From: a bacterium
Lineage (GTDB): Bacteria > Patescibacteriota > Andersenbacteria > UBA10190 > CAIZMI01
Assembly: GCA_030647555.1 (NCBI GenBank)
Contig: JAUSJG010000008.1
Coordinates: 193,467 to 257,466, forward strand
Direction of reading: 5' to 3'
DNA: 64,000 nucleotides
Part shown: piece after piece, positions 36,324 to 54,559 of the stretch
Numbering within the stretch: the first letter of the stretch is position 1
Layout: the number at the start of each line of letters is the position of its first letter
Notes under the pieces: model-generated
Seen by the model: only the letters and a program-made list of their open reading frames with translations
Databases searched by the model: none
Told to the model about the DNA's origin: nothing
Program-made: the position numbers and the translations under genes

Positions 36324-36351
36324 AAAAAACCGTAGCTCGTAAGCTACGGGG
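36323..36351. terminator. Bidirectional terminator between convergent genes
   Basis: A8-CCGTAGCT-CGTA-AGCTACGG. Confidence 0.6.
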
Positions 36352-37807
36352 GAGTCGGATTTTGTTCACTCAGCAACCATTTGGCTGCATCCTCGGCGGT
36401 GTAGGAATTTCCCGGGCCTGTCATAAGATGTCGAAGGAAGTCGACATTTCCAAGTGTAACAATTGCCGGTTCTCCTTCATTGTTCATTCCTGCTGTCGTG
36501 AGAAGACCATTGCAAAGGCATTTTCGTCCTTCTGTGTCCTCTCTGATGCCTCCTTGGGCAACATAGTGGTCGATGGGCCCGCTTGGACATCGGTACCCGA
36601 TTGTGCCATCGGATTTTTGGTAAGGTGTACAAAGTACACCATGGTCACAAATGCGTTCGCGATTTTCGAAAACCTTGGTTTCTGCAACGGTTCCTTCCAG
36701 CATGGCAACCATAAAGGGGTAACCAGTCGGCGACACTTGCATGTCCTGGTTAGTTTTCAGTTTCCCAAAAAAACCTAGAGCACGCAGTCTTCTGCGCAGT
36801 TTTGGATCCATCCCTGATTCCTCGCAGAGAGCAAAAATGGAACCAACTTGAACTCCTTGTGCGCCCAATGCCAAGGCTTCGGCAAGTTTTTTTGGCGAAG
36901 CATAATTGCCTCCGATCCAAAACGGAAGGCCGAGGGAGGCAATTCTGGCGTGATCAATTACGTCTTTCTCTCCATAGATCGGAAGCATTTTTCCACCAGC
37001 ATCGAAAACTGGACGTCGTGGAGGAGCGTTGTGCCCGGCCGCGGTGTTTTCCTCAACGCCAAATCCGGAAATGCTTCCTTTGGGGAGTCTGCTGGACAAC
37101 CTGACAAAGGCATTTGCAGCTGCATAAGAAGAAACGACTGGGATAAATCCTGGTCTTTCCATTGTAGGCAACTTAGCCCCAAAGAATGACTCAAAATCAA
37201 ACAACACCGTGTGTTTATTTGATTTTGAACCTAGAACAGGGACTTCATAGTGCGCGGGCCTTCCTTCGAGGATGTCTGTGATCATTGCCGGAACAGACAA
37301 AGCCATTCCCGCCCCCATTGTGATGAAGTTTGCGTTGGCGAGCATTGCTCCCACAACAGCGAAGGGATGGGGCATAGCGATCTTTTCGAGGTAGTTGATC
37401 GTGATCGGATGATCGTGTCCTTCTTTGGCAAGCCAAACGAAGGAGTAGTTTGCGCAAACTACGAGGGCAATGAGGAGTCTGCTTGGGTTGACCGTAAAAG
37501 AGGGCGCATTTTTGAAGCGACCTTTCTTTACACCACCGGCGACGAAGTATTTATCCATTACTTCATTAACAACGGCTTGAAATGGAAATGTTGCCAACGC
37601 GCGACGAATGTTTTCATCGGGGTCGCCTCGTTGCAAAATGGCCACCAACACCCTTTCCAGCGCGACACCGGAAACGGTGCCGTATTGGCCTAACATGGCG
37701 ATAGTCTTTGCTAGTCTTGGGCAGGAAATGTTTACACCCATTCCGCCACAACGAATCATTCCGAAGGTTTTGTTGCTCACTGTATGTTCCTTATTTTTGA
37801 GTGTCAA
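36344..37807 (-). CDS. Nitronate monooxygenase / NMO-family FMN oxidoreductase-like protein
   Basis: 'MIRCGGMGVNIS' N-terminus and glycine-rich TIM-barrel segments. About 50% GC, slightly above background. Confidence 0.45.
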   Translation of the reverse strand: MTLKNKEHTVSNKTFGMIRCGGMGVNISCPRLAKTIAMLGQYGTVSGVALERVLVAILQRGDPDENIRRALATFPFQAVVNEVMDKYFVAGGVKKGRFKNAPSFTVNPSRLLIALVVCANYSFVWLAKEGHDHPITINYLEKIAMPHPFAVVGAMLANANFITMGAGMALSVPAMITDILEGRPAHYEVPVLGSKSNKHTVLFDFESFFGAKLPTMERPGFIPVVSSYAAANAFVRLSSRLPKGSISGFGVEENTAAGHNAPPRRPVFDAGGKMLPIYGEKDVIDHARIASLGLPFWIGGNYASPKKLAEALALGAQGVQVGSIFALCEESGMDPKLRRRLRALGFFGKLKTNQDMQVSPTGYPFMVAMLEGTVAETKVFENRERICDHGVLCTPYQKSDGTIGYRCPSGPIDHYVAQGGIREDTEGRKCLCNGLLTTAGMNNEGEPAIVTLGNVDFLRHLMTGPGNSYTAEDAAKWLLSEQNPTPP

Positions 37808-37860
37808 TGTTCAATCCCACGGTTAGAATAGCAGAAAAGGAGAAAAAATCTATATTTGTC

Positions 37861-39363
37861 ATGAGTAGTGAATTTCAGTATAATCACTGCATGCGCGAAG
37901 ATTTGATTACAACCCGTGAAGAACATGTTAAACGGCTTCAAGACGCGGGCCGAAATCTTTATCCAACTTGGAATGGGCGGACACATTCCGTAACCGACAT
38001 CCATGAACAAAGTGAAGTATTAATAAGTGATAAAACTGTTGTTACTACGGCGGGGAGGTTGAGTGCAAAAAGGAAACATGGCGGGTCTACATTCGCGGAT
38101 ATTGTCGATGGTGGTGGAAAAATTCAAATTTGGATAAAGCGCGACTTGGTTGGCGTTGAAAATTATACATTGATCGAAGCTTTGGATTTGGGTGATATTG
38201 TGGCGTTTACGGGGGCAGTTATTAAAACAGAGGCCGGTGAGTTAACGGTGCAGTGTGAAAAATGGGAGCTCCTTACAAAGTCTCTTACACCGCTTCCCGA
38301 TACTTGGTATGGCCTAAAAGATGTTGAAGTACGTGCCAGACAACGCGAGTTGGATTTGTTGATAAATAAAGAATCAAGAGAGACGTTTGTGATGCGAAGC
38401 AAAATTATTCAAGCGATGCGCGAATTTCTTTTACGGAATAATTTTATGGAAGTGGAAACACCTGTTTTGCAGAGTATTGCGGGTGGGGCTTCGGCGCGTC
38501 CGTTTACAACGCATCATAACGCTTTGGATTTGGATTTATTTTTGCGTATTTCGCCGGAACTTTATTTGAAGCGGATGGTTGTAGGTGGTTTTGAACGTGT
38601 GTTTGAAGTGGCGCGCAATTTTCGTAATGAGGGCGTGGATCGCCAACATAATCCGGAATTTACAATGTGTGAGTTTTATATGGCCTACGCGAACATTGAT
38701 GATTTGATCAGTTTATCCGAAAAAATGTTTTCCGCGATTTTTTCCGGCGTTGGCAAAGGGGACAAAATTACATACCAGGGCGTTGAACTGGATTTCAAAG
38801 CGCCATGGAAACAAATATCTTATGTTGATACGATTAAAAAAGAAACGGGGATTGATGTATTAGAAGATGTTGACCCGCAAATTTATATTAATTATATGAA
38901 TGATAATAATTTTGATTTACCGGAATCAAAATCATTGCCGGCACTGGTTGATACGTTATTTAAGGAAGCGATTCGCAAGAAAGTAGTACAGCCGGTAATT
39001 GTGAGGGATTTTCCGACGTATATGGAACCTCTGGCAAAACGCGTAGAAGGTAATCCAAAATTGGTACAGCGTGCGCAATTGGTGGCGATGGGGGCGGAAT
39101 TATTTAAAGCTTATACCGAATTAAACGATCCGATTGATCAGGAGAAGCGTTTTATTGAACAGGAACGATATCGTGAGGCCGGCGACGCGGAAGCCCAACA
39201 TATCGATCAAGCTTTTTTGACGGCACTGAAAATAGGTTTACCGCCAACGGCCGGCTGGGGAATGGGTATTGATCGTTTAACAATGCTTTTAACCGATCAA
39301 TCACACATCCGAGACGTGATTACTTTTCCCCTAATGCGCCCGGAGACTGACTCAAATGCTTGA
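37861..39363 (+). CDS. lysS: Lysyl-tRNA synthetase, class II
   Basis: OB domain, then 'RISPELYLKRMVVGGFERVFEVARNFRNEG' and 'GWGMGIDRL'. Confidence 0.9.
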   Translation: MSSEFQYNHCMREDLITTREEHVKRLQDAGRNLYPTWNGRTHSVTDIHEQSEVLISDKTVVTTAGRLSAKRKHGGSTFADIVDGGGKIQIWIKRDLVGVENYTLIEALDLGDIVAFTGAVIKTEAGELTVQCEKWELLTKSLTPLPDTWYGLKDVEVRARQRELDLLINKESRETFVMRSKIIQAMREFLLRNNFMEVETPVLQSIAGGASARPFTTHHNALDLDLFLRISPELYLKRMVVGGFERVFEVARNFRNEGVDRQHNPEFTMCEFYMAYANIDDLISLSEKMFSAIFSGVGKGDKITYQGVELDFKAPWKQISYVDTIKKETGIDVLEDVDPQIYINYMNDNNFDLPESKSLPALVDTLFKEAIRKKVVQPVIVRDFPTYMEPLAKRVEGNPKLVQRAQLVAMGAELFKAYTELNDPIDQEKRFIEQERYREAGDAEAQHIDQAFLTALKIGLPPTAGWGMGIDRLTMLLTDQSHIRDVITFPLMRPETDSNA

Positions 39364-40666
39364 TATAAATTTTGTTAAGGAAAATCTTACATTAGTAAAA
39401 AACGTTTGTCGGGATAAAAATATTGACGTCGATGTTGATAGGCTTGTTGCATTGAATTTGGAAATCGTTAAAAAGAAACAGGAAATTGATGGTCTAAACG
39501 CGGAAAGAAATAAGCTAGCCAAAAGTACCGGTGGCGGAAAACCGACGGAAGAACAATTAAAATTGGCGAGAGAACTGAAGGAAAAAATTGCCACAGTTAC
39601 TGATGGTGCAAATTTGAATGCGCTAGAAAAAGAATATGTCGTTTTGCTCGAAAAACTGCCGAATATTCCTACCGGCGACACGCCTATCGGGAAAAATGAG
39701 GATGAAAATGTTGTTTTGAGTCAATGGGGCGAGATTAAAAAGTTGGATTTCAAACCTCGCGAACACTGGGAAATCGCGGAAAAATTAAATTTGTTGGATA
39801 CGGAAAGAGCAACAAAAGTTTCCGGTTCCCGTTTCGTTTATTTGAGAGGGGATTTGGTGCTTTTGCAATATGCGTTAATCCAGCAAGCTATGGGAATTTT
39901 GATGAGTAGAGAAGCGTTGGCAAAAATAATTGCAGAATTCGGATTATCTGTTTCCGATAAGCCTTTTACTCCGGTTATTCCTCCCGTAATTGTTAAAGCT
40001 GAGGTAATGCAGAGAATGGCGCGGTTGGAGCCCAAAGAGGAACGCTATCACATCGAACAAGACGATTTGTATTTAGTTGGCAGTGCCGAACACACACTTG
40101 GACCAACCTATATGGATGAAACATTAAACGCGGAAGAATTGCCAATTCGTTTAGTAGGTGTTTCATCGGCTTTTAGAAGAGAAGCGGGATCATATGGTAA
40201 AGATACGAAAGGAATGATTCGTTTGCATCAGTTTGAAAAGTGTGAAATGGAATCTTTTTCCGCGCCGGATGCGTCACTGGAAGAACATAAACTGTTTTCG
40301 GCGATTCAGGAAACTTTGATGCGGACATTAAATATTCCTTACCAGGTAATTCTAAAATGCACGGGTGATATGGGTACGCCAAACGCGAGAGCAGCTGATA
40401 TTGAAGCTTGGTTTCCGGGGCAAAATAAATATCGTGAAACGCACACCGCGGATTATATGACGGATTATCAAACGCGTCGTTTGAAGACAAAAATCAAAAT
40501 GAAAGACGGCACTACGACATTCGCGCACATGAATGATGGGACAGCTTTTGCCGGACGAACGATTGCCGCCATTATTGAAAACTATCAACAAGAAGACGGA
40601 AGTGTGATTATTCCGGAAGTGTTGCGCGGTTACTTTGGAGGACGAGAGAAAATTTTAGCCGTCTAA
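39356..40666 (+). CDS. serS: Seryl-tRNA synthetase
   Basis: N-terminal coiled coil. 'SSAFRREAGSYGKDTKGMIRLHQFEKCE' class II motifs. Confidence 0.9.
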   Translation: MLDINFVKENLTLVKNVCRDKNIDVDVDRLVALNLEIVKKKQEIDGLNAERNKLAKSTGGGKPTEEQLKLARELKEKIATVTDGANLNALEKEYVVLLEKLPNIPTGDTPIGKNEDENVVLSQWGEIKKLDFKPREHWEIAEKLNLLDTERATKVSGSRFVYLRGDLVLLQYALIQQAMGILMSREALAKIIAEFGLSVSDKPFTPVIPPVIVKAEVMQRMARLEPKEERYHIEQDDLYLVGSAEHTLGPTYMDETLNAEELPIRLVGVSSAFRREAGSYGKDTKGMIRLHQFEKCEMESFSAPDASLEEHKLFSAIQETLMRTLNIPYQVILKCTGDMGTPNARAADIEAWFPGQNKYRETHTADYMTDYQTRRLKTKIKMKDGTTTFAHMNDGTAFAGRTIAAIIENYQQEDGSVIIPEVLRGYFGGREKILAV

Positions 40667-40679
40667 TTTTTTAAGACCG

Positions 40680-41501
40680 ATGACGCGAGAGGTCAAATCG
40701 GAATCGCAGTCTTTTTTGCAAAAAGACCCGTCAAGAACGTGGTTGTGGGTGTTTGGTGGAATAATTATTCTAATAATTTTGGTTGGTTTGGGAAGTGTAT
40801 TTTTACCGGAACAATTTATGGTAAAAAATGTGGTTGTTAGCAATACCCGACCGGAAGTGGCGCAACAAATTAAAAACTATGTTCAGGAGGTTGTACAAAA
40901 TAAGTCAAAATTATTTGGCAAGACAAGTATCTTTCTTGTTCCGCGAGATTTCTTAGAGTATGAATTACCGAATAAATTTGCCATTATCAAAACAGTACAA
41001 ATACTGCGTGAATTGCCAAGTACGGTTCATATTGTTATTCAAGAAAAAGTTCCCGTGGCGGTTTTGATATCGGGCGGGGTAAGTTACGCGCTTGATCCCG
41101 GCGGTGTGGCCTTTGAAGAATTTTCCCAAGAGAGAATGCAGACAAATAAATATCCGATTATCAGCGACGAGCGAAAAACGACGGAAATAGATGTTGGTAA
41201 ATCCGTAATGGATCCGAGGATTTTGACTATGATGCACGATATCGCCCGTCTATTTCCCGAAAGGTTTGGGATACAAATTGATAAAATTACGATCCCCGCG
41301 ATTGGTAGTCAGGAATTGCATGTTTACACCAGTGAAGGTTGGATGTTAGTTTTGGACAATAGCAGAACGCTGGATGAGCAGTTTTTGGTACTGGAAAAAA
41401 TACTCACGGAACAGATCACTAATGATAAAAGACCAATGTTGAGCTATATTGACCTAAGGGCGGCAGGAAAAGCTTTTTTTAAGTTTAAGGATGGCACATG
41501 A
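40680..41501 (+). CDS. FtsQ/DivIB-like (POTRA) membrane protein
   Basis: One TM segment followed by an extracytoplasmic α/β domain of about 200 aa. Position upstream of the Mur-ligase gene. Confidence 0.45.
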   Translation: MTREVKSESQSFLQKDPSRTWLWVFGGIIILIILVGLGSVFLPEQFMVKNVVVSNTRPEVAQQIKNYVQEVVQNKSKLFGKTSIFLVPRDFLEYELPNKFAIIKTVQILRELPSTVHIVIQEKVPVAVLISGGVSYALDPGGVAFEEFSQERMQTNKYPIISDERKTTEIDVGKSVMDPRILTMMHDIARLFPERFGIQIDKITIPAIGSQELHVYTSEGWMLVLDNSRTLDEQFLVLEKILTEQITNDKRPMLSYIDLRAAGKAFFKFKDGT

Positions 41502-42307
41502 TACTAACGGAAGAAGAAATCGAAATCGACGGTATTTCATATCGTTATTTGCATGGCGGAAAAAGCGGTGGAATTCCGATTTTGTTTTTACATGGCTGGG
41601 GCAGTAAGGCGGAAAGCTACCGAAAAGCGAGCACTTTTTTTCCGGATGATTTTCCGGAAATTGTTATTCCCAATCTTCCTGGTTTTGGATTTGCCCCGGT
41701 ACCGAGCACAATTTGGGGTATTAAAGAATACACTGACTGGGTAAACAAGCTCATTCAAAAACTTGGCTGGTCAAAACTGTTTTTGGCTGGACATTCATTT
41801 GGCGGTCGTTTGACTATATATATTGCTTCTCATCAGCCGGAGTTGTTATCGGGAATTATTTTATACGCCACGGCGGGAACAACAAGGCGCAACCAAAAAA
41901 GACTCTCATTCTTTAATATTATCGCCAAATTAGGAAAGGCGATATTGAGTTTGCCAGGGCTTCATTTTATTTATCCAATCGCGGAAAAAACTCTATACAA
42001 ATTAGTTGGCAACACAGATTACTTGTATGCGGGAGAAAAACGCGAAATATTCAAAAAAGTTATTAACGAGGACCTTTCTGGGTTAGTAAAAGATATTTTT
42101 GTTCCAACGAAGCTCCTTTGGGGAAAAGATGATTTTCAAACACCGCTCGCCGATGCCGAATATATTCATCAAAACATAAAGGGTTCGGAACTTAAGGTAA
42201 TCTCTGGCGAGGGGCATATTATGCACTCGAGAAATCCGGAACTGTTTGCAAAAGAATTTTCCGAATTGGTTGCTAAATTATTGAGTGAAACAAGCCATGG
42301 TAAATAG
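41498..42307 (+). CDS. α/β-hydrolase fold protein
   Basis: 'LHGWGS' and the 'GHSFGG' nucleophile elbow. Confidence 0.7.
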   Translation: MILTEEEIEIDGISYRYLHGGKSGGIPILFLHGWGSKAESYRKASTFFPDDFPEIVIPNLPGFGFAPVPSTIWGIKEYTDWVNKLIQKLGWSKLFLAGHSFGGRLTIYIASHQPELLSGIILYATAGTTRRNQKRLSFFNIIAKLGKAILSLPGLHFIYPIAEKTLYKLVGNTDYLYAGEKREIFKKVINEDLSGLVKDIFVPTKLLWGKDDFQTPLADAEYIHQNIKGSELKVISGEGHIMHSRNPELFAKEFSELVAKLLSETSHGK

Positions 42308-43895
42308 TATTTTGGTATTTGCGATCGGTGTACTGTGGTTGATTGCGATTTGTCGCTTGATTATTTTGCAGGTGGCTACCTGGCAATTAAAAGAATATCG
42401 TTGGGACAGAATGCGTGAATATCTTCGGTTGGGAAGCACGAAACAGGTTCTTATGAGTCCGATAGAATTGGCCAAATGGTTGTTGCTATTTCTGTTTTTT
42501 GCCGGAAACACCTTATTTGGTTTATATTCCTGGTTTGTACTCGCGATATATATTCTTGATTTATTGTTATTAGTAAAAGAGTTAAGACGACACATGATCA
42601 TACGGCCGGCAATGACGATAAAGGCAATCGGTATGATAGCAATATCTCTTTCGGTCATCTTTGCGCTCTTAGGTCTAATGTTTCTTAACGGGGTATTTAT
42701 TGTGGCGACGTTGGTGTTTCTGGATCGTCTCACGGCGGTTATTGTTACGACATTTGTGTTTTTATTTTTTCCATTGTCTGCAATACTAAAGCGACGAAAA
42801 ATTAACGCGGCAAAAAAATTACGCGGAGGCCTGGGACAAGTTGTAGTGATTGGTATTACCGGAAGTTATGGTAAGTCGAGTACAAAAAATATTTTAGCTA
42901 CAATATTAGATGGCGATAATATATTGGTGACTCCCGGCAACACGAACACAGAAATTGGTGTTGCGCAATTGATGCTTAATCAACTAACAGAAAACATAAA
43001 CTATTTTGTTGCGGAAATGGGTGCTTATCGTATTGGAGAAATTAAGAGTTTGGCCGAATTAGTTCAGCCCAAAATTGGCATTCTTACGGCAGTGGGGAAT
43101 CAGCATCTTGGGCTTTTTGGTTCCCATGAAAATATCAGAAAGGCAAAATCCGAACTTATTGCATCGTTGCCGGCAGACGGGACAGCAATATTAAATGCGG
43201 ATGATCCGATTTGTTTCGATATATCGAAACAAATTACGCACTGTGAGGTTTTGACGTATGGACTGTCGGATGAGGCCGATTTGCAAGCAAAAATAATTAG
43301 TTCTAATGAAAATGGAATTGAGGTTAAAATATTTGGATTAGTGCCGGAAACGATGATTGTTATGCCTGTAGTTGGACAGCATCAACTTGGTAATGTTTTG
43401 GCCGGCATTTTAACGGCTATTGTCCTTGGAAAAAAATGGCCGGAAATTCAATTAAAACTTCAAAATATCAGGATGGTTAAACAAACGATGGAAAAATATA
43501 CTACCGCGCAAGGCGCATTGGTTATCAACGATTCTTATAATGCCAACGTAAGTGGGGTTATCGCGGCGATAGAAAATCTAAAATCTTTTTCGCAATCCCA
43601 AAAAATTGTTATTTTAACGCCGATGATTGAATTGGGAAGTGACTCGGCAACCGCGCACGAGCAAGTGGGGGCCGTGCTAGCTAGGGTTGCGACGCGTGTT
43701 TATTATACCGGGACGGATTTTAAAAATGAACTCTTGGCGGGCGCTAAATTAGTAAATCCCGATTTCAAAATTAAAACTCAGACGCAAGCAAGTGAAATTA
43801 TTAAAGATCTGTATCCTGTCCTCGGAAATGACGCGGTTGTACTGCTAGAGGGCCGTGTTCCGAAATTAATTCGAGAATCATTGCATACAAAATGA
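42285..43895 (+). CDS. Mur-ligase family enzyme (MurF-like) with an N-terminal polytopic membrane domain of about 170 aa
   Basis: 4-5 TM helices, then 'VIGITGSYGKSSTKN' P-loop and 'INDSYNAN' MurF-type C-terminal motif. Confidence 0.7.
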   Translation: MKQAMVNSILVFAIGVLWLIAICRLIILQVATWQLKEYRWDRMREYLRLGSTKQVLMSPIELAKWLLLFLFFAGNTLFGLYSWFVLAIYILDLLLLVKELRRHMIIRPAMTIKAIGMIAISLSVIFALLGLMFLNGVFIVATLVFLDRLTAVIVTTFVFLFFPLSAILKRRKINAAKKLRGGLGQVVVIGITGSYGKSSTKNILATILDGDNILVTPGNTNTEIGVAQLMLNQLTENINYFVAEMGAYRIGEIKSLAELVQPKIGILTAVGNQHLGLFGSHENIRKAKSELIASLPADGTAILNADDPICFDISKQITHCEVLTYGLSDEADLQAKIISSNENGIEVKIFGLVPETMIVMPVVGQHQLGNVLAGILTAIVLGKKWPEIQLKLQNIRMVKQTMEKYTTAQGALVINDSYNANVSGVIAAIENLKSFSQSQKIVILTPMIELGSDSATAHEQVGAVLARVATRVYYTGTDFKNELLAGAKLVNPDFKIKTQTQASEIIKDLYPVLGNDAVVLLEGRVPKLIRESLHTK

Positions 43896-45133
43896 TTGCT
43901 ATTTCCCTCGCTCCAAATTTTGAAACAAAGGACGCTTTATTGGCACTGAAACAGCTGTTTTTGCCATGGCGTTGGCGTAAAGGTACTGCCAATCAAAGAT
44001 TGGTCGCTAAATTACAAGCAATACTTGGCAGGAAGGAAATTTATACGGTTAATAGCGCGCGTTGGGGACTATATTTATTGCTTCAGAATTTGCGTCTTGA
44101 GAAAGATACGGAAGTTTTATTGCAGGCGTTTACTTGCGTCTCCGTTCCAGGCCCGGTGCTCTGGAATAATTTGAAACCGGTTTACGTTGATATTCTGGAA
44201 AGAGAATTAACAATGGATCCTCTTGATCTGGAGCGAAAAATTACAGCTAAAAGTCGGGTAATTATTGTTCAACACACTTTTGGCATACCGGCTCGGATGG
44301 ACGAAATAATGACGATTGCCAAGAAACACAACTTAATTGTGATCGAGGATTGCGCACATACGCTTGGAGGGAAACATCGCGATAAGCTTTTGGGCACGAT
44401 TGGTGACGCCTCAATTTTTAGTTTTGGTCGCGACAAAGCAATCTCAAGTGTTTTTGGTGGTGCAATTATGGTTAATAATCAAAAAGTGTTTACTAGTATT
44501 AAGTCTGCTGTGGCAGAATTGCCATTGAGTAAAAACGGGTGGGTTCTCCAGCAACTGATGCATCCGATTTTGTTTGAGTTGATTATTAAGCCATTATATT
44601 TCACGGCGCAGATCGGAAAGATAAAATTAGTCTTCGCTCAGAAGGTCGGTCTGCTTTCTAAAGCCATCGCGTCACATGAAAAGTCTGGCGGTAAGCCCGC
44701 TTTTGAATGCGCAAAATTATCAAACGCGTTGGCGGAACTGGCCTGTTTTCAATTAAGCCGGTTAGAGGCATTTAACGCGCGTCGTCGCGAAATCGTTGAA
44801 ATATACAACAAGGAATTACACCAATCTGGTTTTGATGGACAGAGTTTATTGCGTTATCCGATTTTTGTTGATGAACCGCGAAAATTGTTATTAGCGGCTC
44901 GCAAAGAAAAGATTTTGCTAGGGGACTGGTATGAAGTGATTGCGCCAAAAGACACGGATCTAAAGGCCGTACAATATGTCGCGGGTTCTTGTCCAGTGGC
45001 GGAATCGGTCGCTAAGAGAGAGATAAATTTACCGACCTACTACACGCTAAAAAACAGTGACCTAAAGAAAATCGTGGAGTTTACTTTAAGGACTGTCCCT
45101 AAAGTAAACGGCTACTTTAGGGACAGTCCTTAA
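43892..45133 (+). CDS. DegT/DnrJ/EryC1/ArnB-family PLP-dependent sugar aminotransferase
   Basis: 'DASIFSFGRDKAISSVFGGAI' (PLP Lys region) and 'IIVQHTFGIPARMDEI'. Confidence 0.7.
   Translation: MIAISLAPNFETKDALLALKQLFLPWRWRKGTANQRLVAKLQAILGRKEIYTVNSARWGLYLLLQNLRLEKDTEVLLQAFTCVSVPGPVLWNNLKPVYVDILERELTMDPLDLERKITAKSRVIIVQHTFGIPARMDEIMTIAKKHNLIVIEDCAHTLGGKHRDKLLGTIGDASIFSFGRDKAISSVFGGAIMVNNQKVFTSIKSAVAELPLSKNGWVLQQLMHPILFELIIKPLYFTAQIGKIKLVFAQKVGLLSKAIASHEKSGGKPAFECAKLSNALAELACFQLSRLEAFNARRREIVEIYNKELHQSGFDGQSLLRYPIFVDEPRKLLLAARKEKILLGDWYEVIAPKDTDLKAVQYVAGSCPVAESVAKREINLPTYYTLKNSDLKKIVEFTLRTVPKVNGYFRDSP
45090..45129 (+). other. Perfect 17-bp stem hairpin within the last 14 codons of the aminotransferase CDS
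   Basis: GGACTGTCCCTAAAGTA-AACGGC-TACTTTAGGGACAGTCC. Confidence 0.6.
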
Positions 45134-45145
45134 AGTGTTAAACCT

Positions 45146-46153
45146 ATGCAAATAAAAGAAATCACGAGTAAGTCGGACTGGGAAGGATTCTTGATAACCC
45201 AAAACTCCAACACGTTTTTACATGGTTGGAATTATGGTGTAATGCAGGAAAAACTCGGCGAAAAAGTAATTCGTTTTGGGTGTTACGAAAATGATGTTCT
45301 TGTTGGTGTTGCGATGGGTGTTTCGGTTACGGCAAGACGCGGTAAATTTTTGTTTTGCCCGCATGGCCCGATCGTTGTAAATAATGATTCTGAAAAAACG
45401 GAAGCTTTAATTTTGGCATTAAAGAAATCTGCGCAAGAAATCAGCTCGGCGTTTTTGCGGATCAGTCCGTTAGAATTGCAGGATGGTAAAAACGCCGAAC
45501 TCTATAAAAAACTGGGGATGCGACCGGCACCGATGCATATGCACGCCGAAACGATGTGGGTTTTGGATATTAAACCTTTCGAAGAAGATTTAATGAAGGG
45601 AATGCGTAAAACAACTCGGAATTTAGTGCGTCGTGCCGAGCGCGATGGTGTAAAAATTCGCATCAGTCGTGACGCAAAAGATTTGGATGTTTTTGAACAG
45701 CTGTACAAAGAAACAGCGGACCGCGAGAACTTTGTTGGATTTTCACGCAAATATTTGGAGGCGGAATTTAACGCGCTGGTGAATGACGGGCAAGTTTTCA
45801 TCGCTTTAGCGGAATATCAGGGCGATGTAATTTCCACAGCTCTTATTACTGTTTACGGCAATACCGGTTTTTATCATCAGGGCGCGTCAACGCGCAAACA
45901 TGCGAAAGTGCCGGGTGCGTATCTGCTCCAGTGGGAAATTATTCGCGAATTAAAGCGTCTTGGGATTCAGCGTTATAACTTTTGGGGTATCTCTGATGAT
46001 ATAAAACACCCTTGGGCGGGCTTATCGCTCTTCAAGCAGGGTTTTGGCGGTTATCGAGAAGATTACCTGCACGCACAGGATCTGCCACTAAAACCGTCAT
46101 ATTGGCTAACATACATAATCGAGCAAATAAGACGCAAAAAACGGGGGTATTGA
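45146..46153 (+). CDS. FemAB-family (aminoacyl-tRNA-dependent) peptidyltransferase-like protein
   Basis: GNAT-like duplicated fold. Motifs and length are typical of FemX/FemAB (PF02388). Confidence 0.6.
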   Translation: MQIKEITSKSDWEGFLITQNSNTFLHGWNYGVMQEKLGEKVIRFGCYENDVLVGVAMGVSVTARRGKFLFCPHGPIVVNNDSEKTEALILALKKSAQEISSAFLRISPLELQDGKNAELYKKLGMRPAPMHMHAETMWVLDIKPFEEDLMKGMRKTTRNLVRRAERDGVKIRISRDAKDLDVFEQLYKETADRENFVGFSRKYLEAEFNALVNDGQVFIALAEYQGDVISTALITVYGNTGFYHQGASTRKHAKVPGAYLLQWEIIRELKRLGIQRYNFWGISDDIKHPWAGLSLFKQGFGGYREDYLHAQDLPLKPSYWLTYIIEQIRRKKRGY

Positions 46154-46237: not shown

Positions 46238-46465
46238 ATGGACACCGGAATTGTGGCTATCGTGGTTGGGGTAATCGGTGCGGGTTTGTTTTTGATCGGT
46301 GCCCTTGTCTGGGCTGGGAGTCGTGTCTCTAAAGGTTGGACCGGTCGAGACACGGTGATTGTGATCATAATGGTCGTATTGGTGATTCCTGTCGCAGTCG
46401 TCGCCCCTGGAGTGATTGTTCGATGGCAAGTTGCTCACGATGCAACTAGCACAATCGCGAAATAA
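46238..46465 (+). CDS. Small 2-TM membrane protein (75 aa), about 52% GC, with a strong SD
   Basis: AAGGAGG 7 nt upstream of the ATG. Two hydrophobic helices. Terminator hairpin at 46481-46510. Confidence 0.4.
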   Translation: MDTGIVAIVVGVIGAGLFLIGALVWAGSRVSKGWTGRDTVIVIIMVVLVIPVAVVAPGVIVRWQVAHDATSTIAK

Positions 46466-46480: not shown

Positions 46481-46510
46481 GTGGTTGATTCAGAATAGGT
46501 AACACCTGTT
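46481..46510 (+). terminator. Rho-independent terminator
   Basis: CAGAATAGGTAACACCTGTTCTG followed by T8. Confidence 0.6.
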
Positions 46511-46539
46511 CTGTTTTTTTATTTCTTTGTTTATCCACT

Positions 46540-48249
46540 TTAAGGGTTACCCTTAAAGTACTTTCTCACCACGATATCTCCTTGATATCCAAACAGTTCC
46601 GAAAAACTTTTTTCCGATTCTAGTTTATATTCATCCGATACTGATAGTTTTGAACCTCCGAAACCGGTTGTGTCCACCGCCCAAATTACATCCGGTTTTT
46701 CTTGAAATATTTCGGGGCCGACAATATCATCTTTTGTTAGAATCGGTCCGCCACTGAAATGGGAAAGTTCGCCTGTTTCAGAATATAAACGCGGTGGCGT
46801 AATCTCCCCTTGCCCCGCTCTGATGAGCGAGGCTCGCCCAGATGGGCGGCCCTCTTTATTAAAGAAGGGAACGCTTGAGTGAAACAAGACCGAAAAATAG
46901 ACAAAACTGGAACTAACAAGGATTGGTTCGTTTTGATTGGCATTTTGTCGGAGATATTGTACGGCCGTGACTGTTCCGGGGTGATCTTGAAAATGCAGTG
47001 ATGTCCAGAATTGATTGACTGTATAAAAGCCATATCCGGCTATTATTAGCGCCACAACGGAACTAATATAAAACTTTTTTGGTAATAACGAAATACTGCG
47101 GGCAAGCAAGATAATTAATGGAATAGACGCAAAAACAAAGTAGCGGTCTTGGTAGATACTTGTTCCGCGTGATAGATACCACGCGCCAAGAAATGGAATA
47201 ATGAATGATGAAACAAGAAGCCAGTCGCCTTTTTTTCGACCAAATAATAGAGGAATAATTAATAATAAGGCAACCAAGACGGTGCAAATTATTGCGGTTT
47301 GATGAGAGAAATCACTTACTCCACCCAAGAGAAGGCGGGACATTGTGTTTGGAATCGACCAATCGTTCATCGGCGGAATCCAGTAGCTTTGTTGGACTTG
47401 GGCACGCTGTTTCAGGAAAGTTGTAAGCCAGGGCAGAAAAATGAGAACGGATAAAATCATACCGGATACTAATGACCATGTGTTGGCACTGCGAAGAGTC
47501 ACTAATGGTTTTTTAACAAGACGCAATATTAAATATCCGCCGATAAAAATAAAAATTCCCACGATGCTAAACAGGGCAAAGTAGTGGACATGAAATAACG
47601 CACCGATCAAAAGTCCTAAAATGATTCCGTCTCGCCAAATTTTTTTCGTCTCGGTTTGTTGTGCCGTCTTAATCATATATACCAACGCAAAACAGAGAAT
47701 TAGCGTACCGAGAGTGTACATTCTGGTTTCCCATGCGTATTGCACTTGAAAGGCGGAGACAGACGTTAAAAGGGCGCCAATAATCCCAACGCGTCTTGAG
47801 TTGAATAAAACTTTACCAGAAAAATAAACACCAAGGACTGTGGCGAAGGAAAGCAGTACGGAAAGAAGACGCAACCAAAATAAACTCACGTCTATTCCAA
47901 GTATGTGGAGAGGCGCGTTCCATAACCAAAGAATTAAGTAATAAAGAATCGGATGCACATCAGCGGCGGCGCGCTGTAAAAATTCCAGAAATGGGAATTG
48001 GATGAGACGCCACGAAAAGGCTTCGTCAAACCAAAGGGAACGGTCGGTGAGATGGGTAAGGCGGATAAGGAATGCAGACAGAAGAATGATGAACAGCGTG
48101 AAAGTAGTTATCAAGTTGTGCGCGTCGCGTTTCCCTCCCTTATTCAAGGGAGGGAGAGGGTGGGTTAGGAATGGGATCGCGCAAAACTTTCTTAATCCCT
48201 CCCAACCTCCCTTTGGTAAAGGGAGGAGACGACGCGACACCATTTTCAC
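46540..48249 (-). CDS. GT-C glycosyltransferase, ArnT/PMT-like, with a repeat-encoded N-terminus and a soluble C-terminal domain
   Basis: 'LWFDEAFSWRL' DE motif after TM1. GTG start. Residues about 3-43 are encoded by the composite repeat. Repeat G lies in-frame at 46825-46851. Confidence 0.6.
   Translation of the reverse strand: MKMVSRRLLPLPKGGWEGLRKFCAIPFLTHPLPPLNKGGKRDAHNLITTFTLFIILLSAFLIRLTHLTDRSLWFDEAFSWRLIQFPFLEFLQRAAADVHPILYYLILWLWNAPLHILGIDVSLFWLRLLSVLLSFATVLGVYFSGKVLFNSRRVGIIGALLTSVSAFQVQYAWETRMYTLGTLILCFALVYMIKTAQQTETKKIWRDGIILGLLIGALFHVHYFALFSIVGIFIFIGGYLILRLVKKPLVTLRSANTWSLVSGMILSVLIFLPWLTTFLKQRAQVQQSYWIPPMNDWSIPNTMSRLLLGGVSDFSHQTAIICTVLVALLLIIPLLFGRKKGDWLLVSSFIIPFLGAWYLSRGTSIYQDRYFVFASIPLIILLARSISLLPKKFYISSVVALIIAGYGFYTVNQFWTSLHFQDHPGTVTAVQYLRQNANQNEPILVSSSFVYFSVLFHSSVPFFNKEGRPSGRASLIRAGQGEITPPRLYSETGELSHFSGGPILTKDDIVGPEIFQEKPDVIWAVDTTGFGGSKLSVSDEYKLESEKSFSELFGYQGDIVVRKYFKGNP
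46825..46851. repeat. 25-nt GC-rich repeat G, in-frame copy inside the GT-C CDS
   Basis: GAGCGAGGCTCGCCCAGATGGGCGGCC. On the minus strand it encodes ...EGRPSGRASLIRAG... Confidence 0.8.
48121..48242. repeat. Composite hairpin repeat, short variant with terminal inverted repeats
   Basis: CGCGTCGCGTTTCCCTCCCTTATTCAAGGGAGGG...CTTAATCCCTCCCAACCTCCCTTTGGTAAAGGGAGGAGACGACGCGAC. Confidence 0.8.
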
Positions 48250-49841
48250 GGCTTTAATCCAAAAACAATCATTGTCGTTTCTTCGAACTGGTTTTTAGTA
48301 CGCATTAATTCTTTTATTTCCGGATGTTTGTTTATGTATCGCTCAGCGTCGGGCAGAGTGGATTGATTGAAGATTATTACATCACCTTGTTGAATGGTGG
48401 TTGTTTCACACTTTTCCGGTTTTAACAAAATATATGGGTAATTATATTTTGTCGTAAGAAAGTGAACGGTTTGTACAGAAAACTCGTCTAAAACCAGATA
48501 TGATCTTCCGGAATTGAGTTTCGCGCGTTGGTTAAGATAATTACTCACTGTTGTTAAATCACTGCGGTATTCGTACCAGTATTTTGGCAGGGAAGCAGAG
48601 ACGCCAAAATAGAGAAATAAATCATAAACACATGTTAGTGCCAAGAGAATCAATAATGCACCCATGGCAATTCTGCGAGCGTTGAGTGATGGTAATCTTT
48701 TTAGTCGATGAATAAACCATGCTCCACCGATTCCCGCGAGCCAAAAAACGACGGGGATTTCGCCAATTGAACGAAGACCATGGGGAATTCCTTCTGCTGT
48801 CGCGACGGCCGGTACCAGCATTATTGCTAACAACAAAAGCATAATAAAAAAGGCGAGAGTTTGTCCTGTGTGTCTTCCGCGAAGTAGGCGATGAAGGTAT
48901 TGAATAGAACGAATTAGTGCGATTATTATGCCGATTAAGCCAAAGACAGCGGGAATTGGTGACAGAAATGGATAACCGGGCACATTGTGACGAGGATTAA
49001 CATCACCGGCGGTGAAAAAAGCCAATATGCTTTTTTCCAGTACATCAGTTGCCGTACCGAGTAAGTTTCCTTTATTGATATCCGGATTAAGGATTGAAAC
49101 TTGCCCCGATCGACCGGCAAAAGACCCAGGGTGATTGTTGAAATATGCAAAAAGCGGGGTCATAGTAACGACCGCTGATAAAAATAGCGCAACTATTGCT
49201 CCGCGATACATTTTAAAGCCGAAAAGACGAGGTTTCCTAAGTAAACTTTGCAGTAGTAAGACAACGGCAACAATCACGATAACGCCCACGAATGCGCGAA
49301 AAGCGATATATGTGTACCAACCTAATCCAAAGGACACACCACAACCGATGGCTTGCCAAATTCGCGTCTTTGGATTTTTAGTTTGAAAAAGTCCCATAAA
49401 AAAATAAACCGTAAGGGCCATAAATAAAGGAATAGTGATCGCGCGAAAACCTGTTCTTGATAATGAAACATGCCACTGATTCGTGGCGATAAATAACCCG
49501 GCTAAAATTCCTACCAGATCGCCAAACATTCGCCGGCCCGCGGCATAGGTGAAATACACCGTCGCCGTTCCAACCAACGCCGAGGCAAAAAACATTGGCC
49601 AGACGCCGATGCCGAAAATGGCGATTAAGACAGCTTGCAGGTAGAAAAATAGCGCCTCGCGCCCGTTGCCACGTTCATAAAATGGCTGCAAGTGTCCATG
49701 GAGAATTGAAATCGCGTCCTCACCATTGGCAGCTTGATCGGGGAAAAGACCGCCCGGCATGGTGGTGATGTGCCAGAATCTGCCAAAAATCGCGAGCAAC
49801 AAAATTATTCCCACTAATATTTTTCTGTTTGCTGGTGTCAT
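48246..49841 (-). CDS. GT-C glycosyltransferase, ArnT/PMT (GT39/GT83-like) family
   Basis: 'GGLFPDQAANGEDAISIL' first-loop acidic motif and about 11 TM helices. Confidence 0.7.
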   Translation of the reverse strand: MTPANRKILVGIILLLAIFGRFWHITTMPGGLFPDQAANGEDAISILHGHLQPFYERGNGREALFFYLQAVLIAIFGIGVWPMFFASALVGTATVYFTYAAGRRMFGDLVGILAGLFIATNQWHVSLSRTGFRAITIPLFMALTVYFFMGLFQTKNPKTRIWQAIGCGVSFGLGWYTYIAFRAFVGVIVIVAVVLLLQSLLRKPRLFGFKMYRGAIVALFLSAVVTMTPLFAYFNNHPGSFAGRSGQVSILNPDINKGNLLGTATDVLEKSILAFFTAGDVNPRHNVPGYPFLSPIPAVFGLIGIIIALIRSIQYLHRLLRGRHTGQTLAFFIMLLLLAIMLVPAVATAEGIPHGLRSIGEIPVVFWLAGIGGAWFIHRLKRLPSLNARRIAMGALLILLALTCVYDLFLYFGVSASLPKYWYEYRSDLTTVSNYLNQRAKLNSGRSYLVLDEFSVQTVHFLTTKYNYPYILLKPEKCETTTIQQGDVIIFNQSTLPDAERYINKHPEIKELMRTKNQFEETTMIVFGLKP

Positions 49842-54336: not shown

Positions 54337-54415
54337 ATCAATTGGTGAGTTATTAGATGATATTGATTAGAACCAAGGTTAATAGTACCATAATAATAGA
54401 TTGATAGTTAGTTAA

Positions 54416-54489: not shown

Positions 54490-54497
54490 AAAAATAT

Positions 54498-54524: not shown

Positions 54525-54559
54525 GTGCGTTAGGGAAGCAACCACCTGCGTTGCTTGCT

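What the first reader, a model, noticed from the sequence alone, without database searches (positions are those of the whole stretch)
40680..46153. Translationally coupled operon: FtsQ-like / α/β-hydrolase / membrane-anchored MurF-like ligase / DegT aminotransferase / FemAB-like transferase
Five genes overlap at start and stop (41498/41501, 42285/42307, 43892/43895), and the fifth follows after a 12-bp gap. The Mur-ligase enzyme has MurF hallmarks (GITGSYGKSST, NDSYNAN), but its usual N-terminal UDP-binding domain is replaced by 4-5 TM helices. That is unusual for a cytoplasmic Mur ligase. It is followed by an ArnB/DegT-type sugar aminotransferase and a FemAB-family enzyme, which in known systems adds amino acids from aa-tRNA to lipid-linked precursors. 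The combination points to a membrane-associated pathway that builds a peptide-decorated amino-sugar. This could be a variant peptidoglycan precursor route or a separate glycoconjugate. I do not recognise it as a described system.
Basis: inference. Interest (0 to 1): 0.65.

Follow-up and report, generated by a model that had tools for sequence, protein, structure and literature searches.

The report
Membrane-embedded MurF operon of Patescibacteria
In this ultra-small (CPR/Patescibacteria) bacterium the cell-wall enzyme MurF, soluble in textbook bacteria, is built into the membrane through a conserved five-helix domain that replaces its usual nucleotide-binding domain. It sits in a widely conserved operon with three enzymes whose roles in wall synthesis are unknown or only partly predictable.

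Summary
Five co-oriented, overlapping or near-abutting genes encode an FtsQ-like protein, an α/β-hydrolase, a Mur ligase with a membrane N-terminus, a DegT-type PLP enzyme and a short FemX-type transferase.

The ligase is a MurF by sequence and fold, but it lacks MurF domain 1. In its place are five TM helices carrying invariant cytoplasmic motifs (WQxKEYRxDR, RPxxTxK). This is not a mis-called upstream ORF. The architecture recurs in at least 576 species-level genomes; those listed whose labels are informative are Patescibacteria. The N-domain occurs only on these ligases and has no solved structural relative.

The module abH–TM-MurF–DegT–FemX is conserved:
- DegT follows the ligase in 65 of 73 loci.
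- FemX lies downstream in 60 of 68 loci.
- abH lies immediately upstream in 56 of 72 loci.

In 35 of 86 sequences examined (85 loci plus the window; all 35 are fetched loci) the module adjoins dcw genes, in the best-resolved ones at the murF position (murE-murC … TM-MurF … mraY-ftsW-murG-ftsA-ftsZ). No other murF appears in those loci.

So this is the lineage's peptidoglycan MurF, not a separate glycoconjugate pathway, but it is an undescribed membrane-integrated variant. The roles of DegT and abH remain open. I found no paper describing it. Verdict: new variant of a known kind, interest about 0.65.

The parts
40680..41501 (+). FtsQ/DivIB-like bitopic protein (273 aa): N-terminal TM, POTRA domain, FtsQ C-domain
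   Evidence: Pfam POTRA_1 E 1.3e-4 (22.7 bits, cut-off 23) and FtsQ_DivIB_C E 4.4e-3, in the correct order. NCBIfam FtsQ E 5.8e-5. The gene sits at this position only in close relatives (L001-L003). In L004, L016, L049, L072 and L083 it lies downstream of FemX.
41498..42307 (+). α/β-fold serine hydrolase (269 aa), substrate unknown
   Evidence: Abhydrolase_1 67 bits. S100/D212/H240 and the HGW oxyanion motif are invariant in 59 orthologues. It lies immediately upstream of TM-MurF in 56 of 72 species-level loci. PDB sequence matches are only generic.
42297..43895 (+). Membrane-integrated MurF-type Mur ligase (532 aa from ATG 42297; the ORF opens at GTG 42285)
   Evidence: TIGR01143 murF scores 257.5 bits, against 88 bits for the next paralogue (MurC), aligned from profile position 73. 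BLASTP against E. coli MurF aligns residues 184-494 with Ec 102-411 at 32% identity. The ten best Foldseek PDB hits are all MurF, best E 1e-26. AF2 pLDDT 93.5, pTM 0.88.
42297..42836 (+). N-terminal five-TM domain that replaces MurF domain 1 (the UDP-binding domain)
   Evidence: Helices at 2-31, 55-68, 74-97, 108-130 and 135-177. The K+R distribution gives N-out/C-in. Against 1.84e9 representative proteins, the full-length matches are N-termini of roughly 490-560-aa ligases and the shorter ones look like gene fragments. It has no relative in the PDB by sequence or by fold.
42381..42410 (+). Invariant cytoplasmic-face motif WQxKEYRxDR (here WQLKEYRWDR, residues 29-38)
   Evidence: W29, Q30, K32, E33, Y34, R35 and D37 are invariant and R38 is at least 90% conserved in 35 diverse homologues. 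This motif was one of two patterns that together retrieved 576 confirmed loci. Coordinates verified.
42603..42623 (+). Second conserved cytoplasmic loop motif RPxxTxK (here RPAMTIK, residues 103-109)
   Evidence: P104 and T107 are invariant and K109 is at least 90% conserved. Coordinates verified.
42852..42884 (+). ATP-binding P-loop GITGSYGKSST of the Mur ligase central domain
   Evidence: T188, G189, S190 and K193 are invariant. Coordinates verified.
43892..45133 (+). DegT/DnrJ/EryC1-family PLP enzyme (413 aa) with a divergent C-terminal half
   Evidence: PF01041 192 bits. All specific NCBIfam equivalogs score far below their cut-offs. PLP-Lys K182 and D153 are invariant in 66 orthologues. 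PDB sugar aminotransferases align only over residues ~40-212. It lies immediately downstream of TM-MurF in 65 of 73 loci. One natural TM-MurF–DegT fusion exists, P0134, 944 aa.
45146..46153 (+). Short FemX-type (FemAB family) aminoacyl-tRNA-dependent transferase (335 aa)
   Evidence: PF02388 113 bits. Residues 52-300 align with Weissella FemX (UDP-MurNAc-pentapeptide-lysine N6-alanyltransferase, also 335 aa, no coiled coil). It lies downstream of TM-MurF in 60 of 68 loci.
46491..46513 (+). Terminator-like hairpin with a T-run; probable operon end
   Evidence: 10-bp stem followed by TTTTTTTATT, just before the convergent gene that ends at 46540. This is a consensus match only.
37801..40666 (+). 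Upstream co-oriented lysS and serS, overlapping each other and separated from the FtsQ-like gene by 13 bp; probably the same transcription unit
   Evidence: ORF layout. A promoter-like site lies at 37856-37884. LysRS/SerRS lie upstream of the module in 27-30 of 85 loci.

Best explanation
This is the Patescibacteria (CPR) version of the last soluble steps of peptidoglycan precursor synthesis.

The ligase is the lineage's MurF, the ATP-dependent D-Ala-D-Ala-adding enzyme. Its N-terminal UDP-binding domain has been replaced by a rigidly attached five-TM domain. Two invariant, basic and aromatic cytoplasmic-face motifs in that domain (WQxKEYRxDR and RPxxTxK) most likely take over binding of the nucleotide-diphosphate end of UDP-MurNAc-tripeptide. 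The reaction would then take place at the inner face of the membrane.

The product would be handed to a short FemX-type transferase, which adds an L-amino acid from aminoacyl-tRNA to the position-3 side chain while the precursor is still nucleotide-linked. It would then go to MraY. Gene order equals pathway order in the dcw-embedded versions.

The co-conserved DegT-like PLP enzyme and the serine hydrolase are predicted to be active and to act on the same precursor pool, but their reactions are unknown.

Shown here: identity as a MurF-type ligase, loss of domain 1, membrane topology, motif conservation, operon conservation and dcw placement. Inferred: the substrate, the role of the motifs, the FemX substrate level, and any role for DegT or abH.
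For: MurF identity:
- TIGR01143 scores 257 bits, against 88 bits or less for the MurC/D/E models.
- The ten best Foldseek hits are MurF structures.
- The protein is 32% identical to E. coli MurF over the M and C domains.
- The catalytic P-loop, Glu, His and the DDSYNAN residues are invariant.

Domain replacement:
- The alignments start at profile position 73 and at E. coli residue 102.
- Five TM helices continue as one 43-residue helix into the P-loop domain, with pLDDT 93.5 and pTM 0.88.
- The positive-inside rule places both motifs in the cytoplasm.

Not an artefact:
- At least 576 genome loci carry the architecture, and full-length coverage is seen in 120 of the 120 listed homologues.
- The N-domain is found only on these ligases.

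Peptidoglycan context:
- In 35 of 86 sequences examined (85 loci plus the window) the gene adjoins dcw genes.
- In L071 the order is mraZ-rsmH-ftsI-murE-murC-murA-glmU(split)-abH-TMmurF-degT-femX-mraY-ftsW-murG-ftsA-ftsZ.
- In L010, L026, L027, L030 and L036, TM-MurF is the nearest detected gene upstream of mraY, 83 bp away in L026.
- No second murF was detected in 1.5 Mb of these loci.
- MurC and MurD in these clusters align with E. coli from residues 1-20, so they keep their N-domains.

Module conservation: 65/73, 60/68 and 56/72 loci.

Partner proteins:
- The catalytic residues of all three partners are invariant.
- The FemX is the short Weissella type, which acts on UDP-MurNAc-pentapeptide.
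Against: - No biochemical data exist.
- The rest of the window's own genome could not be inspected, so a second, canonical murF elsewhere in it is not formally excluded.
- TIGR01143 falls below its curated cut-off (257.5 against 288.6).
- I could not read model coordinates, so the proximity of the conserved motifs to the active-site cleft is untested.
- Loss of the UDP-binding domain combined with gain of a membrane domain is equally what one would expect if the substrate were lipid-linked.
- DegT and abH have no place in the canonical pathway, so the pathway as stated is incomplete.
Confidence: 0.55

Rival explanations
1. Same enzyme family, but the acceptor is lipid-linked. MraY would first transfer phospho-MurNAc-tripeptide to undecaprenyl phosphate. 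TM-MurF would then add D-Ala-D-Ala (or another dipeptide) to lipid I- or lipid II-tripeptide at the membrane, with the conserved basic motifs binding the polyprenyl-pyrophosphate head group. Precedents for cytoplasmic-face enzymes that work on lipid II are MurT/GatD and the S. aureus FemXAB proteins.
For: - The UDP-binding domain is lost completely and replaced by an integral membrane domain whose invariant residues are K/R/W/Y/E/D at the membrane-cytoplasm interface.
- The upstream ligases MurC and MurD keep their N-domains while only MurF has lost it.
- The TM domain is specific to this ligase.
Against: - Gene order keeps TM-MurF upstream of mraY, as in canonical clusters.
- The accompanying FemX is the short, coiled-coil-less type whose characterised member uses the UDP-linked pentapeptide.
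- There is no direct evidence for a lipid substrate.
Confidence: 0.2
2. The TM domain is only an anchor or scaffold. It would hold an otherwise ordinary MurF at the membrane next to MraY and the elongasome or divisome (channelling in a tiny cell). The invariant motifs would be an inter-domain or protein-protein interface rather than a substrate site.
For: - The pTM of 0.88 implies a fixed packing of the TM and ligase domains, which by itself would conserve interface residues.
- The module neighbours MreBCD-PBP2 or FtsQ/FtsA/FtsZ genes.
Against: - A simple anchor needs one helix, not five helices carrying seven invariant polar and aromatic residues across a superphylum.
- MurF still needs something to hold the UDP end of its substrate once domain 1 is gone.
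Confidence: 0.15
3. One reading: the module builds a separate peptide-decorated amino-sugar glycoconjugate that is unrelated to peptidoglycan, and a normal MurF exists elsewhere in the genome.
For: - A DegT-family enzyme and nearby glycosyltransferase, PMT_2 and GtrA genes are present in the window.
- The window itself holds no mraY, murG or murC-E.
Against: - In 35 loci the module adjoins the dcw cluster; in the best-resolved ones it lies between murC/murA/glmU and mraY, with no other murF there.
- In the window and in L071, no dehydratase or oxidoreductase that could make a keto-sugar for DegT lies next to the module.
- The ligase M and C domains are specifically MurF-like.
Confidence: 0.05
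4. Annotation artefact: the TM stretch is a separate small upstream ORF, or a frameshift fusion, wrongly joined to a truncated MurF.
For: The start codon is ambiguous (GTG 42285 or ATG 42297), and the gene overlaps the hydrolase gene.
Against: - It is one uninterrupted reading frame.
- The 120 listed homologues run from 472 to 598 aa, most 520-560 aa, and all cover at least 83% of the query.
- At least 576 genomes carry it.
- AF2 models helix 135-177 as running straight into strand 183-188 of the ligase.
Confidence: 0.01

Closest known systems
MurF (UDP-MurNAc-tripeptide:D-alanyl-D-alanine ligase; TIGR01143; e.g. E. coli 1GG4, A. baumannii 4QF5, P. aeruginosa 4CVK)
   Same: - The central ATP-binding domain and C-terminal domain have MurF-specific sequence and fold.
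- The P-loop, metal ligands and DDSYNAN motif are present.
- Related genomes place the gene at the dcw position between murE/murC and mraY.
   Different: - Domain 1 (about 80-100 residues, which binds the UDP moiety) is absent.
- It is replaced by a roughly 180-residue five-TM domain with invariant cytoplasmic motifs and no known structural relative.
- The protein is integral to the membrane.
- It scores below the curated TIGR01143 cut-off.
MurT/GatD (lipid II isoglutamine amidotransferase; MurT is a Mur-ligase homologue)
   Same: It is a Mur-ligase-fold enzyme without the canonical UDP-binding N-domain, and it acts late in the pathway at the membrane face.
   Different: - MurT is soluble.
- MurT has a DUF1727 C-domain and a GatD glutaminase partner.
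- MurT amidates rather than adds a dipeptide.
- The window's protein is specifically MurF-like in both domains.
CapB/PgsB (poly-γ-glutamate synthetase, Mur-ligase superfamily) — comparison from my own knowledge, not tested here
   Same: It is a Mur-ligase-superfamily ATP-dependent amide ligase that is membrane-associated through an N-terminal hydrophobic segment and works with membrane partners.
   Different: - CapB has a single anchor, not a conserved polytopic domain.
- CapB polymerises glutamate.
- NCBIfam returned no CapB/PgsB model among the hits, which were dominated by MurF.
FemX of Weissella viridescens (UDP-MurNAc-pentapeptide-lysine N6-alanyltransferase; 1NE9, 4II9)
   Same: - Same length (335 aa).
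- Alignable over residues 52-300.
- No coiled-coil insertion.
- Encoded directly downstream of MurF/DegT and, in the dcw-embedded versions, upstream of MraY. This is consistent with action on the nucleotide precursor.
   Different: - The sequence match is only weak (E 1e-7; NCBIfam 61 bits against a cut-off of 500).
- The donor tRNA and acceptor residue are unknown.
DegT/DnrJ/EryC1/StrS sugar aminotransferases (PseC, WecE, ArnB, QdtB)
   Same: The N-terminal PLP-binding half matches, with the Schiff-base lysine and the Asp that binds the pyridine nitrogen.
   Different: - The C-terminal half is divergent.
- No partner that generates a keto-sugar was found next to the module.
- The conserved position between murF and femX has no precedent that I could find.
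- All equivalog cut-offs are missed by a wide margin.

Membership tests
MurF (TIGR01143) | Mur ligase central (ATP-binding, P-loop) domain | tested here: met
   PF08245 142 bits, residues 191-377. T188, G189, S190, K193, E240 and H270 are invariant.
MurF (TIGR01143) | Mur ligase C-terminal domain | tested here: met
   PF02875 48.4 bits, residues 402-523. The DDSYNAN and ELG motifs are conserved.
MurF (TIGR01143) | Closer to MurF than to any other Mur-ligase paralogue | tested here: met
   murF 257.5 bits, against MurC 88.5, MurD 86, MurE 64 and cyanophycin synthetase 42. Foldseek ranks 1-10 are all MurF.
MurF (TIGR01143) | Score above the curated family cut-off | tested here: not met
   257.5 bits against a cut-off of 288.6. 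The shortfall corresponds to the missing first 72 profile positions.
MurF (TIGR01143) | N-terminal domain 1 that binds the UDP moiety of UDP-MurNAc-tripeptide | tested here: not met
   The alignment starts at profile position 73 and at E. coli residue 102. Residues 1-180 form five TM helices.
MurF (TIGR01143) | dcw-cluster position between murE/murC and mraY, as the only murF there | tested here: met
   Met in related loci such as L071, L034, L035, L065 and L026. Not met in the window itself, where the module follows mreBCD-PBP2-greA-lysS-serS.
MurF (TIGR01143) | Sole MurF in the genome | not testable with these tools
MurF (TIGR01143) | Catalyses ATP-dependent addition of D-Ala-D-Ala to UDP-MurNAc-tripeptide | not testable with these tools
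   Requires an enzyme assay.
FemAB family (PF02388), FemX-type | FemAB/GNAT-like double domain above the Pfam threshold | tested here: met
   113.5 bits against a cut-off of 24. Residues 52-300 align with Weissella FemX.
FemAB family (PF02388), FemX-type | Equivalog-level identity with UDP-MurNAc-pentapeptide-lysine N6-alanyltransferase | tested here: not met
   NF047883 scores 61.4 bits against a cut-off of 500.
FemAB family (PF02388), FemX-type | Aminoacyl-tRNA as donor | not testable with these tools
   Inference from the family only.
DegT/DnrJ/EryC1/StrS aminotransferases (PF01041) | Family HMM above threshold, with the PLP-binding lysine | tested here: met
   191.7 bits. K182 and D153 are invariant in 66 orthologues. 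The lysine aligns with the Schiff-base Lys of 7B0M.
DegT/DnrJ/EryC1/StrS aminotransferases (PF01041) | Membership of a characterised nucleotide-sugar aminotransferase equivalog (PseC, WecE, ArnB, LegC, DesI) | tested here: not met
   The best is PseC at 122.7 bits against a cut-off of 423.5. The C-terminal half has no significant PDB match.
DegT/DnrJ/EryC1/StrS aminotransferases (PF01041) | Neighbouring dehydratase or oxidoreductase that supplies a keto-sugar substrate | tested here: not met
   None found in the window operon or in the L071 cluster.
FtsQ/DivIB | POTRA plus FtsQ C-terminal domain above threshold | tested here: inconclusive
   22.7 against 23 bits, and 18.3 against 21 bits. The domain order is correct and there is an N-terminal TM helix. 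E. coli FtsQ finds only L085 by tblastn.
α/β-hydrolase fold (PF00561) | Fold HMM plus a nucleophile-acid-His triad | tested here: met
   67 bits. S100 (in GHSFGG), D212 and H240 are invariant.

The most novel reading that the evidence does not exclude
In Patescibacteria the stem peptide would be completed and remodelled on the membrane by chemistry not seen elsewhere.
- TM-MurF would act on a polyprenyl-pyrophosphate-linked tripeptide precursor through its new membrane domain.
- The universally co-encoded DegT-like PLP enzyme and the serine hydrolase would act on the peptide rather than on a sugar. For example, they might epimerise, transaminate or trim the free-amino branch residue installed by FemX.

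The result would be a CPR-specific peptidoglycan structure and a new class of PLP enzyme acting on wall precursors.
Probability: 0.15. Interest if true: 0.85.

Novelty: new variant of a known kind. Interest (0 to 1): 0.65.

Why it matters
Mur ligases are textbook soluble cytoplasmic enzymes. The boundary between the cytoplasmic and membrane stages of wall synthesis is conventionally drawn at MraY.

Here a whole superphylum, estimated at 15-50% of bacterial species (abstract of 10.64898/2026.03.03.709456, listed), appears to have moved MurF into the membrane. The enzyme has swapped its nucleotide-binding domain for a new, highly conserved membrane domain. It is also tied genetically to a PLP enzyme and a hydrolase that have no role in the known pathway.

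This gives three things:
- a concrete, testable entry point into the still unknown peptidoglycan chemistry of CPR bacteria;
- a lineage-specific signature, WQxKEYRxDR, which was one of the two patterns whose scan returned, among listed loci with informative labels, only Patescibacteria;
- a case study of domain replacement in an essential enzyme.

It also shows that routine 'MurF' annotation hides a major architectural difference.

Tried and rejected
- **Exact look-up of the 536-aa GTG-start protein** found nothing. The database holds the 532-aa and 536-aa forms under other entries.
- **TM region as a separate ORF or frameshift:** rejected.
- **Non-peptidoglycan glycoconjugate pathway:** rejected on dcw embedding.
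- **Other mur or mraY genes in the window:** I scanned all large ORFs and found none.
- **A second murF in 85 related loci (1.5 Mb):** none found. E. coli ddlB also found nothing there.
- **A relative of the TM domain:**
  - Pfam gave no match.
  - The profile against PDB sequences gave nothing better than E 0.16.
  - Foldseek against the PDB gave a best E of 3.7.
- **The N-domain in other architectures:** only ligases and fragments, plus one TM-MurF–DegT fusion.
- **Eight literature searches and three papers read**: no description of a membrane-anchored MurF or of this module. Absence from this library is not proof of absence.
- **The 75-aa ORF at 46238-46465,** which has a strong RBS, is not conserved in any locus, so I did not count it as part of the module.
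- **Model coordinates are not exposed,** so I could not measure the distance from the motif to the active site.

Full report
**Observation**

- 40680-41501
- 41498-42307
- 42285-43895
- 43892-45133
- 45146-46153

The overlaps are 4 bp, 23 bp (11 bp if the ATG at 42297 is the start) and 4 bp, followed by a 12-bp gap.

Pfam and NCBIfam confirm the domain calls:
- **FtsQ-like protein.** POTRA plus FtsQ C-domain hits sit just under their thresholds but are in the right order.
- **α/β-hydrolase.**
- **Mur ligase.** It has central and C-terminal domains but no N-terminal domain hit.
- **DegT/DnrJ/EryC1 PLP enzyme.**
- **FemAB-family protein.**

Upstream, lysS and serS are co-oriented and overlap each other. 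Downstream, a terminator-like hairpin at 46491-46513 precedes a convergent gene. The unit therefore probably runs from lysS to femX.

**The ligase**

Among Mur-ligase models, MurF wins by a wide margin:
- TIGR01143 scores 257.5 bits.
- MurC scores 88, MurD 86 and MurE 64.

The alignment begins only at profile position 73, and the score stays under the curated cut-off of 288.6.

Against E. coli MurF, residues 184-494 align with E. coli 102-411 at 32% identity. E. coli residues 1-101 have no counterpart.

An AlphaFold2 model built from 35 homologues is confident (pLDDT 93.5, pTM 0.88):
- It shows five TM helices at 2-31, 55-68, 74-97, 108-130 and 135-177.
- The last helix runs straight into the first β-strand of the P-loop domain.

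The ten best Foldseek PDB hits to this model are all MurF structures (best E 1e-26). They align about 375 columns, which corresponds to the M and C domains only.

Lys and Arg counts per loop across the alignment give an N-out, C-in topology:
- Loop 1, loop 3 and the stretch after TM5 average 6.0, 3.0 and 6.0 K+R.
- The N-terminus, loop 2 and loop 4 average 0.1-0.3.

**The N-terminal domain is real, conserved and specific**

Conservation:
- The 120 listed homologues run from 472 to 598 aa, most 520-560 aa, and all cover at least 83% of the query.
- W29, Q30, K32, E33, Y34, R35 and D37 (WQxKEYRxDR, nt 42381-42410) are invariant. So are P104 and T107 (RPxxTxK, nt 42603-42623). Both motifs lie in cytoplasmic loops.

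Specificity:
- The domain alone (residues 1-180) finds 134 proteins among 1.84 billion representatives.
- The full-length matches are N-termini of roughly 490-560-aa proteins. The four shorter hits I scanned carried at most a truncated Mur_ligase_M domain, so I take the short hits to be gene fragments.
- One hit is a 944-aa natural fusion of TM-MurF with DegT.

No known relative:
- There is no Pfam match to the domain.
- A profile of the domain finds nothing in PDB sequences.
- A separate high-confidence model of the domain (pLDDT 93.6) has no Foldseek match in the PDB; the best E is 3.7.

**Distribution and synteny**

The best 80 whose labels are informative are Patescibacteria lineages:
- Saccharimonadales
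- Peribacteria
- Peregrinibacteria
- Gracilibacteria
- Magasanikbacteria
- Spechtbacteria
- Gottesmanbacteria
- Levybacteria
- Kerfeldbacteria
- Andersenbacteria
- Blackburnbacteria
- Moranbacteria

Many other contigs carry implausible labels such as 'uncultured Gammaproteobacteria'. Their gene order matches that of the Patescibacteria-labelled loci.

I mapped the window's proteins onto these loci with tblastn. Counting only loci with enough flanking sequence:
- DegT lies immediately downstream of the ligase in 65 of 73.
- FemX lies downstream in 60 of 68.
- The hydrolase lies immediately upstream in 56 of 72.

Look-ups of three homologues at 73%, 46% and 36% ligase identity gave the same order, with independent gene calls.

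**Peptidoglycan context**

I mapped the E. coli dcw proteins onto the same loci. In 35 of the 86 sequences searched (85 loci plus the window; all 35 are fetched loci) the ligase adjoins dcw genes.

The fullest example is L071:
- Its order is mraZ-rsmH-ftsI-murE-murC-[MurA]-[NTP-transferase]-[hexapeptide transferase]-abH-TM-MurF-DegT-FemX-MraY-ftsW-murG-ftsA-ftsZ.
- The bracketed genes and MraY were identified by Pfam.

Further points:
- In L010, L026, L027, L030 and L036, TM-MurF is the nearest detected gene upstream of mraY (83 bp in L026). None of abH, DegT or FemX is present in these five loci.
- No other murF-like gene appears in any locus.
- MurC and MurD in these clusters align with their E. 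coli counterparts from residues 1-20, so they keep their N-domains.

Three conclusions follow:
- TM-MurF occupies the murF slot of Patescibacteria.
- The TM domain is a property of MurF in this superphylum and does not depend on the accessory genes.
- abH, DegT and FemX form a common add-on inserted between murF and mraY.

The window itself has no other mur or mraY gene. Here the module follows mreB-mreC-(mreD)-PBP2-greA-lysS-serS, an arrangement shared with Magasanikbacteria-like loci.

**The partner proteins**

All three look catalytically competent:
- **Hydrolase:** S100, D212, H240 and the HGW oxyanion motif are invariant.
- **DegT:** the PLP lysine K182 and D153 are invariant.
- **FemX:** a set of Arg, Lys, Tyr and Trp residues is invariant.

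The FemX is 335 aa long. It aligns over residues 52-300 with Weissella FemX, which is the same length, has no coiled coil and acts on UDP-MurNAc-pentapeptide.

The DegT is the odd member:
- Only its PLP-binding half (about residues 40-212) matches solved sugar aminotransferases. The C-terminal half is divergent.
- It misses every equivalog cut-off.
- No enzyme that generates a keto-sugar accompanies it in the window or in L071.
- It is nevertheless more conserved across the CPR (44-48% identity) than the ligase (33-36%).

The hydrolase gives only generic matches.

**Mechanism**

Best-supported reading (confidence about 0.55):
- This is the lineage's peptidoglycan MurF, working at the inner face of the membrane.
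- The invariant cytoplasmic motifs of the new domain take over the job of domain 1, which is to hold the nucleotide-diphosphate end of UDP-MurNAc-tripeptide.
- The product then passes to a nucleotide-level FemX and on to MraY, following the gene order.

Main rival (about 0.2):
- Losing a UDP-binding domain while gaining a membrane domain could mean the acceptor has become lipid-linked (lipid I- or lipid II-tripeptide).
- MurT/GatD and the staphylococcal Fem enzymes are precedents for working on lipid II.

Third reading (about 0.15):
- The domain is a scaffold, and its motifs form an interface.

The tools could not separate these three readings, because model coordinates are not exposed and no complete genome was available.

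The roles of DegT and abH are unknown. One idea is that a PLP enzyme acts on the free α-amino group of a branch residue or of the distal DAP centre. This is my speculation, not a result.

**Comparison with known systems, and novelty**

By its catalytic domains and genomic slot the ligase is a MurF. It fails two defining features of the family as curated: the domain-1 architecture and the TIGR01143 cut-off. I therefore file it as a variant of MurF, not as a standard member.

Public annotations call these proteins plain 'MurF'. Eight full-text searches and three papers read turned up no description of a membrane-integrated MurF or of the abH–MurF–DegT–FemX module. The papers included the CPR protein-family survey PMC6744442 and a closed Gracilibacteria genome paper, PMC6851277, which simply states that the peptidoglycan pathway is complete.

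**Verdict**
- Novelty: new variant of a known kind.
- Interest: 0.65.

Noticed in passing
P0134 (944 aa; not in the window): A natural single-chain fusion of the five-TM domain, the MurF M and C domains, and the DegT-like enzyme (Pfam: Mur_ligase_M 178-366, Mur_ligase_C 390-510, DegT 541-727). It may be a Rosetta-stone hint of functional coupling. Because the two genes normally overlap by 4 bp, it could equally be a one-base sequencing error.
   Followed up: partly
window 37801-40666; loci L014, L015, L019, L041, L046, L049, L051-L053, L056 and others: lysS and serS sit directly upstream of the module in 27-30 of 85 loci. FemX-type enzymes use aminoacyl-tRNA donors (Ser or Ala in MurM-type enzymes), and Lys is the usual FemX acceptor residue. 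The linkage may be functional, or it may just be inherited synteny.
   Followed up: partly
window 46238-46465 (+): A 75-aa ORF with two predicted TM helices and a strong AAGGAGG ribosome-binding site lies between femX and the terminator-like hairpin. It has no tblastn match in any of the 85 related loci, not even in L003.
   Followed up: yes
window 10319-11329 and 27748-28800: There are two MreB paralogues in one 64-kb stretch (Pfam MreB_Mbl 445 and 472 bits). The second heads a run of mreC, an unassigned 172-aa ORF (a possible mreD) and a class B PBP. This suggests a full rod-shape system in a presumably very small cell.
   Followed up: no
window 615-13496: A large envelope-glycosylation block contains a PMT_2-type membrane glycosyltransferase, a 670-aa protein with no Pfam hit, five GT4 glycosyltransferases and a PEGA-domain protein. 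A second PMT_2 gene plus a DUF6541-like membrane protein lie convergent to the operon at 46540-49841. A GtrA-like gene lies at 51184-51714.
   Followed up: no
L071 7905-9265: In this dcw cluster the GlmU-like function is split into separate nucleotidyltransferase (247 aa) and hexapeptide acetyltransferase (206 aa) genes. They sit between murA and the hydrolase.
   Followed up: no
loci L009, L010, L014, L016, L017, L042, L043, L055, L074 and others (record titles): Many contigs with a gene order matching that of the Patescibacteria-labelled loci are labelled 'uncultured Gammaproteobacteria', 'Bathyarchaeia archaeon', 'Pacearchaeota', 'Anaerolineae' or 'Nitrospirota' in the public records. These look like taxonomy or binning errors.
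   Followed up: no
all 85 related loci (about 1.5 Mb): E. coli DdlB found no tblastn match at E 1e-4 in any locus, including the 35 with dcw genes. The D-Ala-D-Ala ligase is therefore encoded elsewhere or is absent or divergent in these lineages. This bears on what dipeptide TM-MurF adds.
   Followed up: no
window 36344-37807 (-) and 19560-20657 (-): Two minus-strand ORFs interrupt long plus-strand gene runs. Both coincide with local GC peaks (0.47 against about 0.42) and dips in GC skew. One has only a faint NMO hit and the other has no Pfam hit. The first is conserved at the same place in L003.
   Followed up: no
window 53653-63134: A possible mobile or defence-like patch downstream contains an HTH protein, tRNA-Gln (54416-54489), a methyltransferase, an ABC-2 exporter pair, a PIN-domain protein, an AddA-like UvrD helicase with a PD-(D/E)XK nuclease (975 aa) and a BRO-N domain protein.
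   Followed up: no
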